Shown here piece after piece: positions 14,601 to 20,600 of a stretch of DNA of 64,000 bases (its first letter is position 1; each line of letters starts with the position of its first letter). The translations under genes were made by a program, and so were the position numbers. The stretch is from contig NC_047024.1 in NCBI RefSeq assembly GCF_902652985.1, positions 22,568,001-22,632,000 of the forward strand. Reading direction: 5' to 3'. Origin of the DNA: Pecten maximus. Its lineage: Eukaryota. Under the pieces are notes generated by a model, which was not told the DNA's origin, did not search any database, and saw only the letters and a program-made list of their open reading frames with translations.

Positions 14601-17600
14601 TAAAAAGTTTGTGCACAATATATCCCATTGGCCGTTGACAGATGTATTTAGATTTCAAAATATTCTATTGTTAACACAACAAAGATAAAAAATAATCTAT
14701 TTGAGCCCCACTCACTTTGTTTTATTGTGAAAGTAGAGCTCTATTTTTGCCAAGCACAAAATCTCGAAATTTTACAAAATCCGATATGGTCTCAAGATTC
14801 CGCCATATTTTGTGGTAAATGACTAAATTTCATACTAAAAATGAAAAGGTTTGTAAAAGAACAAAAAGAGTAAACTCTGCATTCCAGCTATATTGCATGT
14901 AAATGTATGATATAAAAATTGTGGAAAATTATTTTAAATTAATATATGATATATCAAAATAAGTATGCTGGATTCTCAAATCCATATAAAGGAGTAGTAC
15001 AGTATTATACTATATAGCTGGCTATTCTAACAAAATGATATTATTGTGATATATGAAATTAGTGCTGGATTCTCAAAGCCATGTAAAGAAGTAATACAGT
15101 ATTATACTATGTAGCTGGATATGAAAAGAAAATGATATAATTGATGTAAGTATTGGATTTGATGTTTATTACAGTACTGGCTGAGCGGGATGCCATGGCG
15201 GTTACCAAGAGTCCTTTCATTGTCCAGTTGTTCTACTCACTCCATTGTCAGCAGAACATTTTCCTGGTATGACAGCTGGTCTGGGCCAATCCCATTGATT
15301 TAGAATCGAGAGTCTAGCCTGTTATTTACTGCAGAAATTAGACTTAATTCATGTTATAATGATTATCTTATCTAATACTAAACACACTTGTTGACCCTGC
15401 AGTTGGAAGCAAATTTTACTATTCAAAATGGCCACCAGTAGCCATTTTGAATTTTGATAGATCGTTTTCTTACTATTCTTATCAATAGTTTGAGTTGCAT
15501 TCTCTCTTTAAAAAAACAATTTCAAACACATCTTAATTAATTTTAGAACATGTTACTAGTAAATGAAGTTTACATCAATCTAATACAGACCATCAGTGGT
15601 AGGAGAGCCAATATCCCTCTGGGATCTCTCGCTATAAGTTTATTACTGTACTGTATTATTATTAGAAACTTGCGGGGCTATAGGTTACCTCCCTGTCCGT
15701 CTGTCAGTCCATCCACTCACTTTTCTCAGCCATGCTTCAAGGTATGTTGGTGAAAGCTGGTATGTAACTTCAGTATGAGCAGCTACAGATCAAATTCGTG
15801 TGTCAGGGTTTTTGGGTCAAGGTCACTGTTACTATTTTTAGCAAGGGCCGGTAGGGGACATGTATTGCTTTAGCTCAAGTAAGAGTTCATGTACTGTACA
15901 TCCTTTAACTAATTGTTTTTAGCTCACCATTATCAAGTTAAGGGCTGTTCAAATTCCCTTTCGCCTGTTGTCTGACAGCTATTCTTAAAACAATTCTTAC
16001 TATTGCTTTTTCTCGGGAAGGGACCTTTTTGTTGCTAGAGTGGGTAGAAAAATGCTTAGATAATAGATATTATACAGGTCTATGCAGATTGCTGCACATA
16101 TACAAAATTATGCATGAGAATGTGTTGTTCGTGTTTGAGAGGAGAACTAACTTATATATGAAAATGTGTTGATCGTGTTTGAGAGCTCGAGTAGAACTAA
16201 TTTATGCATGAAAATATGTTGATCGTGTTTGAGAGCTCGAGGAAAACTAACTTACGCATGAAAATGTGTTGATCATCACGATTCGTGTTTGAGAGGAGAA
16301 CTAGCTTGGTTTGGAGATAAAGGAGAGATCTAAGTGTCTGTGATGTGTTGATTATAATTCATATCACAGTCTGCTTTGATCAGCTTCTTTGTCTTAACTC
16401 ACTCCAAATACCTAGTAAACCACTTGATTATGAAAAAATTCAAGTCCGATTTAAAGTATTGTCTAAGAGTTTGGTTCCATATCCTAAATGTGCTTTTAAT
16501 TGTGACGTTGTCAACATGGACCATCATCAATTTATAGTTTGTGTGTGTTTTCTTTTTTCAATATATCATTAAGACTTTTTGAAATACAAAGTTTCGACTG
16601 TTTCATTACCCTGGGGCCAAACTAGAAATAGCACAAAGTAATGTATGATAAGTTCATATGTATTGTTTTGTTTTTATTGCATATAAAATATCACATCTTT
16701 AAAACATGACTTTGTGGATTGCCTTGTTTTCAGATAATGGAGTATATGATCGGTGGTGATATAAAAAGTCTCCTGGTCGTTTATGGTTTCTTTGATGAGG
16801 ATATGGCATTGATATATGCTGCAGAGGTGACCCTGGCACTCCAATATCTACACTCCAGGGGCATCGTTCACAGGTAAACATCAGTCACAGGTAAACATCA
16901 GTCACAGGTAAACACTGGCACTCTAGTATCTGCACTCGAGGGGCATCAGTCACAGGTAAACATCAGTCACAGGTAAACATCAGTCACAGGTAAACATCAG
17001 TCACAGGTAAACATCAGTCACAGGTAAACATCAGTCACAGGTAAACACTGGCACTCCAATATCTACACTCCAGGGGCATCGTTCACAGGTAAACATCAGT
17101 CACAGGTAAACATCAGTCACAGGTAAACATCAGTCACAGGTAAACACTGGCACTCCAGTATCTGCACTCGAGGGGCATCAGTCACAGGTAAACATCAGTC
17201 ACAGGTAAACACTGGCTCTCCAGTATCTACACTCCATGGGGCATCGTTCACAGGTAAACATCAGTCAAAGGTAAACATTGGCTCTCCAGTATCTACACTC
17301 CATGGGGCATCGTTCACAGGTAAACATCAGTCACAGGTAAACACTGGCTCTCCAGTATCTACACTCCATGGGGCATCGTTCACAGGTAAACATCAGTCAC
17401 AGGTAAACACTGGCTCTCCAGTATCTACACTCCAGGGGCATCGTTCACAGGTAAACATCAGTCACAGGTAAACACTGGCACACCAGTATCTACACTCCAG
17501 GGGCATCGTTCACAGGTAAACATTGTTCACCAGTAAACGTCAGTCACAGGTAAACACTGGCTCTCCAGTATCTACACTCCATGGGGCATCGTTCACAGGG

Positions 17601-20600
17601 AAACATCAGTCACAGGTAAACACTGGCTCTCCAGTATCTACACTCCAGGGGCATCGTTCACAGGTAAACATTGTTCACCAGTAAACATCAGTCAAAGGTA
17701 AACACTGGCTCTCCAGTATTTACACTCCAGGGGCATCGTTCACAGGTAAACATCAGTCACAGGTAAACATCAGTCACAGGTAAACATCAGTCACAGGTAA
17801 ACACTGGCTCTCCAGTATCTACACTCCAGGGGCATCGTTCACAGGTAAACATTGTTCACCAGTAAACATCAGTCACAGGTAAACACTGGCTCTCCAGTAT
17901 TTACACTCAAGGGACAACCTTCATAGGTAAACATTGTTCTCCAGTACACATCAGTCACAGGTAAACACTGGCTCTCAAGTATTTACACTCCAGGGGCATC
18001 GTTCACATGTAAACATCAACCACAACAGGTGCATGTCAGTTACAGATAACATCAACCACAGGTAATCATCAGTTACAGGTAAAAATTGATTACAGGTAAT
18101 CATCAACCACAGGTAAACATCAGTTACAGGTAAACATCAACCAGAGGTAAACATCAACCACAGGTACACATCAGTTACAGGTAAACATCAACCACAGGTA
18201 AACATCAGTTACAGACATACATCAGTTACAGGTAAACATCAACCACAGGTTATCATCAGCTACAGGTAATCATCAACCACAGGTAAACATCAATTGCAGG
18301 TAAACACCACAACATGATAATTAGTCCATCGTAGTCAATTGTGCTTCAGTTAAGAAATGAGTCGGACACTAAGTGTTGGCTCAAGGGTTTATCATGGATA
18401 AAAGTTGTTATAAATTAGACATGGGACAACAATATATTGTAGAGTTGGGAATCACTTTAATCTTGATCAATCGTCACAATTTCTCAAACAATTGAATTAT
18501 CAACAAAAAACGTACACTGAAATGATGGTAAAATGTGGTGGATATGTTTCAAGGTGTCTATCTCTTTTTTTTTTTTTTTTTTTTAAATATTGTAATGCAT
18601 TTTGATGTAAATTCATCAGTTATTTTGTTTGTTTCATCACTTTTTTAAGTGTTCTGTAAAACTTAAATAACTGCTGATAGTTTCCAACTTTCCATGTTAT
18701 AGTCGAACCAAAATCGATCACAGAAAATCATGAGTGACAGTCAGAGATAAAATAACTTATCATTGATTAAATCGGTTAATCTGTACACAATTGTTTATTG
18801 TTTATAGTTTATGTTATATGAGACACCTTTACATTACAGAGACCTGAAGCCTGACAACATGTTGATATCACCAGAAGGACATATAAAGCTGACAGACTTT
18901 GGATTGTCCAAAATCCAATTTGAAGTGGGTAAGGTCAAATTATACAAAAAATTTAATATTTATGAAAGAGTTAAATTTTCCTGACTTAGGGTTAATGCAA
19001 ATCTTTTACCTGCAAGTTTTAACATTTGGCTGTTGCAAGGATGTTTTCATTGACACTGTCATAATAAAAAAATCATTGCACATTTGTGCATCATAAAACC
19101 TTTGAAACCCAGATTTGACCAAGATTTGTATTGGTCAGTACAGTCAATTATGCAGAAGACGCTTACTCTTTTGGAACTCCTGGTCTTGTACTGTCCTTGT
19201 ACTGTCCTTGTACTTTTTCAAGTGTCTCAGTGCAAATCTGACAATGTAACCTCAGGTGAGGATTTGAGGTGCATGGTTCAACTCCTTATAATTTCAGAAC
19301 CAGATTGATTTAAAAATATATTGATTGATGAACATTGTTTTAAGATAAAGATTTTCTTTTGAGTGAGAATGTGAAATTTCAGTAAGAAACATTTTGTTTG
19401 TTTGCCTATAGGGTCATATAAACAACAAGTGGACCCAGGAAAGACTCCTCTGCCCTACAGCAGTCACAGAATAGATTGCTTCCGCACGCCCGGTCAGATC
19501 CTCTCCTTCAAAAGTAACCTGGGATTCGTAAGTTTCGCAGCAATATAATCACTAACTGACTCAGATGAAATTATTTTCCCAACTGCCTATATCTAGACGT
19601 TTGTTATACACCTTGCAAGACAGCTGTTCCGGAAGTCTTTGTCTGCTAATTGAATCTTGTCCATCTTGTTACATCTGAATTTTGAGTTAAAATTACCATT
19701 TCGTTTTCAAGCCGTTATTATCTGTTTCTTTTCCAAACATATTCATTATTGAGGTTGTTAAATGTTATTTATTTCAGAATATTCCATCAGTGAAAAAGCC
19801 ACAAACCAACATAGATCCTGTGGATACTCCTGCCACAAGACGAAAGCATTATTCCAGAAGTCCTCTTGTGGATGTGAACACAAACTCTCCGAATACACAT
19901 TATTCCAAACCAAAGTCCCTGAGGGACCGTCTGGTGAGTCAGGCAACCAGGTCACGATTGTCCTCACCAAGTGTGGCCCTGCCTCCACCAGTGATGAGCT
20001 TGACTCCAACCCTGCAAGACTCACTAAACTGGTCCAATAGCGGTAGTGATGGCAGCTCCTTCCAAATGGAGTCGTCACGTCGGTCCAGACTGTTTACGGA
20101 TGATCAGACACTTGGCACTCACAATCTCATGTCAATGGCAGAGAGCCACAAAGTGTCAAATTTCAGAAACCTTAAAATCAGTGAGATAGAAAGAGAAGGT
20201 TCCTGCGGTTGGAGAAACAAACTTGGCAGGAGTCACAGTGATAGTGTAATGAGTGAGGACCGGGACAGTATTTTCGAAAGCAGTATAAGTATTGAAATGT
20301 CAATAACGGACAAGAGTACCGATTCTGTATTCTACAAGAAATGTCATGACAGCGAGGGGGACTGTTGTGAGGAGGACTGTTGTAACAGCCACCTCAAAGC
20401 ACCGTCACGACAGGAAAGCATCATGGACGATACACCCCAGATGCATAGATCTAATGAATCTGTGTGGAATTCCTACGCTGCGAGAAATCTCCGGTCAATG
20501 CGTCATGGATCATACTCTGAGGATAGCGATGAAAATGAGGAACCAAGACAAAGGTGCGCTGAAAATAGAAAGAAAAGCTCAAAGTCAAGCTGTGATAAAA

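What the first reader, a model, noticed from the sequence alone, without database searches (positions are those of the whole stretch)
16915..18010. Intronic exon-end copies differ from the exon mostly at synonymous sites
Seen: read in the exon frame, the recurrent substitutions are GCA>GCT (Ala), CAA>CAG (Gln), CTA>CTG and CTA>TTA (Leu), and TCC>TCG (Ser). The copies at ~17410 and ~17705 still encode [13 protein letters not shown] exactly. Non-synonymous changes (TAG at ~16924, CAC at ~17481, AAG at ~17977) are mostly single-copy, although a +1 T insertion (TCCATGGGG) is shared by several copies. Inference: neutral intronic copies should not show codon-position bias. The array may archive earlier alleles of the exon through repeated re-seeding, or exchange sequence with the real exon by unequal crossover or gene conversion. 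The variant count is small.
Basis: partly seen in the sequence, partly recalled or inferred. Interest (0 to 1): 0.7.

Follow-up and report, generated by a model that had tools for sequence, protein, structure and literature searches.

The report
Greatwall exon-end repeat in an intron
The last 41 bases of a Greatwall kinase exon and its splice signal have been copied 14 times into the next intron; their tilt towards silent changes is not significant on its own and likely comes from ordinary re-copying of an exon that tolerates mainly silent changes, a weak effect also seen across 84 similar repeats in this genome.

Summary
The array is real. It is a 1.4-kb 'mirage' minisatellite built from the 3' end and donor of a Greatwall/MASTL exon (16734-16873): 14 long units and about 40 17-mers. 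The scan has already reported this kind three times on other DNA of this genome. Counted once each, 8 of 17 substitutions are silent (p 0.05-0.16). The CTG/TCG 'recurrence' comes from one 140-nt duplication that includes the exon end, which shows re-seeding once. Two spliced contigs carry only the reference exon letters. The copies cannot be translated. Across 84 other exon-end arrays, single-copy changes are neutral (59/216 silent; 27% expected), while shared ones are mildly enriched (99/287 = 34.5% against 26.4%, p 0.0015, replicated in a held-out set). That matches descent from a constrained exon plus occasional re-copying. Conversion back into the exon, or selection on the copies, is not shown. 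Side result: the donor octamer is 11-fold enriched in tandem arrays but not as a single word.

The parts
15175..15266 (+). Preceding Greatwall exon (…[28 protein letters not shown])
   Evidence: Its 3' letters are the loose end joined to 16734 in contigs of X7 and X3; motif; start read from the sequence
16734..16873 (+). Greatwall/MASTL kinase exon, 140 nt (IMEY…[14 protein letters not shown])
   Evidence: Pfam Pkinase 76-121; only PDB hits at E<=1e-6 are human Greatwall 5loh/8v5h, E 1.6e-15; both ends spliced in contigs
16833..16880 (+). Unit 0: last 41 exon bases plus first 7 intron bases, the template of the 48-nt long unit; its last 12+5 bases are the template of the 17-mer
   Evidence: boundaries sit at short microhomologies with the donor (read from the sequence)
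16874..18308 (+). Intronic minisatellite: 14 long units (48/49 nt) and about 40 17-mers; 44 CAG|GTAA donor-like sites counting the real one; distal part degenerate
16915..16955 (+). Long unit 1: TAG, CTG, TCG, AGT (stop and Val>Ser in the copy nearest the exon)
17048..17204 (+). Recent duplicate of the block 16833-16972: long unit 2 (identical to the exon end) and long unit 3 (sister of unit 1)
   Evidence: 1 mismatch in 140 nt after leaving out one extra 17-mer; 82 nt exact
17212..18008 (+). Long units 4-14: CAG in all, GCT in 10, +T in 4, TTA in 3, unit 13 with 5 private changes
18840..18928 (+). Next exon ([25 protein letters not shown]…)
   Evidence: Joined to 16873 in contigs of X3 and X5; Pfam Pkinase 123-147; 3' end inferred from a GT donor
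19691..21523 (+). Open frame of 610 codons holding the large insert exon between DFG and the activation segment
   Evidence: that this split is typical of Greatwall is recalled knowledge

Best explanation
This is a tandem repeat made from the end of a Greatwall exon and its splice donor, and the exon end has been re-copied into it at least once; the silent tilt likely reflects small numbers plus changes that arose in the exon itself, where mainly silent ones survive. Shown: unit structure, one duplication that includes the exon end, splicing at the first donor, an in-frame stop directly behind the donor, and a weak genome-wide silent excess confined to shared differences. Inferred: units arose and turn over by slippage or unequal exchange at microhomologies; copies evolve neutrally; a change fixed in the exon after a copy was made appears as a silent difference shared by all older copies, at any frequency if re-copying recurs. 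About 11% of shared differences genome-wide would be of this kind. Here CAA/CAG, and perhaps GCA/GCT, are the candidates; CTG, TCG and TTA are more simply array mutations that happen to be silent.
For: Block duplication including the exon end. 8 of 17 silent overall, p 0.05-0.16. Pooled 84 arrays: singles 59/216 = 0.273 vs 0.270 expected; shared 99/287 = 0.345 vs 0.264, p 0.0015, array bootstrap excess +0.036 to +0.126; shifted frames 0.233 and 0.244; held-out set 31/84, p 0.026. Majority differences 23/59 fit 0.41. A toy simulation with one-way re-copying and no selection on copies gives 0.28-0.35 silent among intermediate-frequency differences, against 0.23-0.32 for single seeding; observed 76/228 = 0.333. 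The copies nearest the exon carry a stop and Val>Ser, and four carry a frameshift. 13 stop-gain variants are shared within other arrays.
Against: This array is more silent-tilted than the genome-wide rate predicts (5 of 7, p 0.046 at 0.335). Shared versus single is only borderline by Fisher test (p 0.052). No 5'-to-3' gradient of silent variants was seen across arrays (p 0.68), which a simple archive would predict. The class carrying the excess differed between sets (rare-shared in discovery, majority in replication). The simulation's two ranges overlap. The direction of CAA/CAG and GCA/GCT is unknown without orthologues.
Confidence: 0.68

Rival explanations
1. Two-way exchange: copies and exon swap tracts by unequal crossover or conversion, so exon alleles are archived in the array and arrays with damaging variants are weakly selected against because they can overwrite the exon end.
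For: Exon-identical copy at 17048. Intermediate-frequency shared differences are enriched for silent ones, 76/228, p 0.013. 7 of 21 diverged arrays hold an exon-identical copy.
Against: 0 of 2 spliced contigs covering the exon end show any array variant (contigs drop rare variants, so this is weak). Stop, Val>Ser and +T copies persist next to the exon. 188 of 287 shared differences are non-silent. Adding replacement of the exon end to the simulation did not fit better.
Confidence: 0.14
2. Pure chance locally: apart from the one block duplication, none of the five silent differences arose in the exon, and the pattern is a tail event among roughly a thousand such arrays.
For: p 0.05-0.18 under most full counts. 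Best of 31 other arrays p 0.021. 12,393 triple-donor matches, 8 arrays in the first 100 rows.
Against: The genome-wide excess among shared differences is real and replicated. CAG in 13 of 14 copies is the typical signature of a change on the exon side.
Confidence: 0.13
3. Local templating or assembly error: CAA>CAG and CTA>CTG each make the two CACTCCA repeats, 14 nt apart in the exon end, more alike, and polishing in a repeat can spread or erase variants.
For: Internal repeat GCACTCCAAT / ACACTCCAGG.
Against: It does not explain GCT, TCG or TTA, nor the frame-specific genome-wide excess. The exon letters are confirmed by independent contigs.
Confidence: 0.05

Closest known systems
Amphioxus 'mirages' (globins BflGb6/BflGb9, Adh3; Ebner et al. 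2010, PMC3087553, passages read; PGBD5, PMC3902484, one passage read)
   Same: Minisatellite-like tandem duplication spanning an exon-intron boundary, units with splice signals, normal splicing retained, concerted turnover inside the cluster.
   Different: Two unit lengths (48 and 17 nt) from one donor. The 5' boundary unit took part in a duplication here, whereas a boundary unit was reported as excluded from homogenisation in BflGb6. The word 'synonymous' does not occur in the main text of that paper. The original Adh3 paper could not be read.
Human F7 intron 7 37-bp VNTR (Borensztajn et al. 2006, PMC1557585, abstract read)
   Same: First unit spans the exon-intron boundary; identical pseudo-donors follow and stay silent because the most upstream donor is chosen.
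   Different: That work concerns donor choice, not the sequence evolution of the exon-derived part. Silence of the 43 extra donors here is supported only by 2 contigs.
Internal tandem repeats at exon-intron boundaries in human segmental duplications (De Grassi and Ciccarelli 2009, PMC2812944, outline and passages read)
   Same: Minisatellite expansion at exon-intron boundaries.
   Different: There repeats can create introns or alternative transcripts. Here read-through meets TAA at once and no in-frame entry into a copy exists.

Membership tests
Mirage / exon-boundary minisatellite | Head-to-tail units that span an exon-intron boundary | tested here: met
   48-nt unit = 41 exon + 7 intron bases; 17-mer = 12 + 5
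Mirage / exon-boundary minisatellite | Units carry copies of the splice signal | tested here: met
   44 CAG|GTAA sites including the real donor
Mirage / exon-boundary minisatellite | mRNA is spliced at the authentic site | tested here: met
   Contigs of X3 and X5 (two studies) leave at 16873 into the exon at 18840; 2 of 8 runs laid cover this end; minor isoforms would not be seen
Mirage / exon-boundary minisatellite | Turnover by block duplication inside the cluster | tested here: met
   Five blocks of 113-156 nt with at most 2 mismatches
Mirage / exon-boundary minisatellite | Length variation between haplotypes or somatic cells | not testable with these tools
Greatwall/MASTL kinase | Closest solved relative is Greatwall | tested here: met
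Greatwall/MASTL kinase | Kinase domain split by a long insert between DFG and the APE segment (recalled) | tested here: met
   DFG at 18895, 610-codon frame 19691-21523, GTPDYLAPE at 23998
Exon-array two-way gene conversion / allele archive | Array variants occur in functional exon alleles | tested here: inconclusive
   0 of 2 spliced contigs show another letter over the last 43-73 exon bases
Exon-array two-way gene conversion / allele archive | Array variants match orthologous exons of close relatives | not testable with these tools
   No relative's DNA is held
Exon-array two-way gene conversion / allele archive | Silent excess significant when variants are counted independently in this array | tested here: not met
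   8 of 17, p 0.05-0.16; 7 of 15, p 0.11-0.18

The most novel reading that the evidence does not exclude
Splice donors in this genome are hot spots for tandem duplication. There are roughly a thousand exon-end arrays with one donor octamer alone, and the exon end stays an active member that keeps re-seeding them, so together they hold a readable record of former silent states of their exons and may occasionally overwrite them. That would turn mirages from a lancelet curiosity into a genome-scale process and give hundreds of natural tests of first-donor choice.
Probability: 0.3. Interest if true: 0.55.

Novelty: new member of a known kind. Interest (0 to 1): 0.3.

Why it matters
As a single locus it matters little: it is a clean mirage whose silent tilt needs no selection on intron copies. 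The wider measurements are more useful. They give a null for such patterns (about 27% silent for array-born changes, about 41% for majority differences) and show a small, replicated trace of exon history in the arrays. They also suggest that donor-anchored arrays are far more common here than the frequency of the donor word predicts. I found no paper measuring silent bias in such copies (searches; open-access library only; no supplements read).

Tried and rejected
Translated or alternatively spliced copies: rejected, since read-through gives R-stop and no AG in the array opens a phase-0 frame into a copy. Population test: no RNA holder was listed on record and all 9 holders are contig sets of one organism. 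I laid 8 runs; 5 left the exon without cover and one stopped at 16795; this lack of cover is no evidence. A metagenome scan for the exon end found nothing. The first automatic array call chose wrong strands and was redone. Searches were flooded by single arrays. L098 was dropped for a wrong donor. L087 was fetched on the wrong side and refetched as L189; neither entered the counts (two open frames). A 5'-3' polarity test was negative. The original Adh3 mirage paper is not held. A word search and a near-place search of earlier findings were empty.

Full report
What is there. The window lies in a 918-Mb animal genome (G000:C10). Earlier scan notes call it a scallop; I did not check that. The exon 16734-16873 encodes kinase subdomains V-VI of Greatwall/MASTL. 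The intron behind it starts with a 1.4-kb array of 14 long units and about 40 17-mers. A long unit is the first 7 intron bases plus the last 41 exon bases. A 17-mer is the last 12 exon bases plus 5 intron bases, most often with GTT changed to AGT (20 of 39 have exactly that unit). The exon end occurs nowhere else in the genome by DNA search (19 matches, all here). Contigs from two studies leave the exon at the first donor and enter the exon at 18840.

The observation. All listed changes are present. The full list has 17 distinct substitutions, 8 silent and 9 not. Against an expected silent fraction of 0.26-0.33, p is 0.05-0.16 (0.15 with a CpG-aware spectrum). These counts are not independent. 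The block 16833-16972 equals the block from 17048 at 139 of 140 bases once one extra 17-mer is left out. So unit 2 is a fresh copy of the exon end, unit 3 is a copy of unit 1, and CTG, TCG and AGT recur only through that event. After collapsing, the shared substitutions are CAG, GCT and TTA (3 of 3, p 0.02-0.03; 2 of 2 without CAG, p 0.08-0.10), beside a shared frameshift. In the 17-mers the commonest changes alter the amino acid.

Can the copies be under coding selection? Not by any route I could find. Use of a later donor reads R-stop directly after the real donor, and 0 AG sites in the array give a phase-0 entry into a copy. The copy nearest the exon carries a stop.

Do the variants occur in real alleles? 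8 of 24 listed runs were laid. 2 cover the exon end (16801-16873 and 16831-16873) and both show 0 other letters. Contigs drop rare variants, so this is weak. No relative's DNA was available.

Genome-wide test. Because one array is too small, I collected others with acceptor-gap-donor-gap-donor patterns. I picked rows by eye for an exon-like start, blind to variants. Discovery: 143 loci, 133 with an array. Of these, 36 had a Pfam-supported frame from 179 frames scanned and 27 had a single open frame; one was dropped for a wrong donor and 60 were informative. Shared differences were 68 of 203 silent (0.26 expected, p 0.01-0.017), singles 35 of 139. I wrote the test down and then ran 60 new loci: 53 with an array, 12 with Pfam support from 55 frames plus 12 single-frame, giving 31 of 84 silent (p 0.026) and singles 24 of 77 (p 0.29). 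Pooled over 84 arrays from 203 loci: 99 of 287 against 0.264 (p 0.0015; array bootstrap +0.036 to +0.126), singles 59 of 216 against 0.270, shifted frames 67 and 70 of 287; Pfam-only arrays 46 of 123 (p 0.010). Against my reading: shared versus single is p 0.052, the frequency class carrying the excess changed between the two sets, and there is no positional gradient. About two thirds of shared differences are non-silent, and 13 shared variants create stops.

Mechanism. The exon is the one constrained lineage in the array's family tree. Any change it fixes after a copy was made shows up as a silent difference shared by older copies. With a single founding copy this predicts 2p/(1+p), about 0.41, for majority differences; observed 23 of 59. 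Intermediate-frequency differences are also enriched (76 of 228, p 0.013). A toy simulation reproduces this with one-way re-copying of the exon end (0.28-0.35) somewhat better than with single seeding (0.23-0.32); adding overwriting of the exon does not help. The ranges overlap, so this is suggestive only. The excess implies that about 11% of shared differences come from the exon side (calculated). For this locus, re-copying is shown once, CAA/CAG is the natural candidate for an exon-side change, and the rest is compatible with chance: the best of 31 arrays with at least 4 shared differences reached p 0.021.

Comparison with what is known. The structure meets the tested features of amphioxus mirages (PMC3087553 and PMC3902484, passages) and of the F7 intron 7 VNTR (PMC1557585, abstract). 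I took the name 'mirage' and the lancelet paper from earlier scan notes. Length polymorphism could not be tested. Searches returned no paper on silent bias in such copies (listings only; no supplements read; the Adh3 paper was not available). [quoted passage not shown]

Side result. The octamer AGGTAAGT occurs 59,377 times against 58,024 for its reversed control, but three periodic copies occur 12,393 times against 1,084. The first 100 rows came from 8 arrays, which suggests roughly a thousand arrays (rough extrapolation). This points to donor-biased origin or retention, against an earlier scan note that put mirages down to general repeat abundance. It rests on one control word, counts units rather than arrays, and was not tested against gene annotation.

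Verdict. Real array of a known kind. The silent bias is partly real and small, and is explained by descent and re-copying from a constrained exon. Interest 0.3.

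Noticed in passing
G000 genome-wide: The donor octamer AGGTAAGT is not enriched as a single word (59,377 vs 58,024 reversed) but is 11-fold enriched in periodic triples (12,393 vs 1,084); at least a fifth of its occurrences sit in tandem arrays. This suggests arrays arise or persist preferentially at donors.
   Followed up: partly
L036-L235: 48 donor-like arrays sit directly behind open frames with a Pfam hit (kinesin, clathrin, STT3, aldolase, septin, PI4K, DNA-PKcs and others; one, L098, had its donor mis-called), so mirages affect many conserved genes in this genome.
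   Followed up: partly
L196:240-283 (aldolase exon end): Nearly all 14 copies differ from the exon at the same sites; 6 of 10 shared differences are silent, as expected for an old array whose exon has since changed.
   Followed up: partly
L063:155-254: Another kinase has a mirage at the end of the exon holding the catalytic loop (ILVALKHLHSKHIVHCDLKPEN).
   Followed up: no
window 16823-16832: An internal donor-like site GAG|GTGACC lies just upstream of the copied segment and resembles the real donor CAG|GTAAAC; likely the microhomology that set the long unit's boundary.
   Followed up: partly
window 16502-16678: A contig of X7 differs from the intron at 8 letters and three indels, showing high intronic polymorphism beside an exon with no differences in the contigs laid.
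   Followed up: no
window 34593-36177, 45679-47064, 50023-50548: Three arrays of 157-161-nt units with similar ends, probably one dispersed satellite family.
   Followed up: no
window 26026-26160: A 14-nt minisatellite ends about 20 nt before a likely Greatwall C-terminal exon; it does not appear to be exon-derived.
   Followed up: partly
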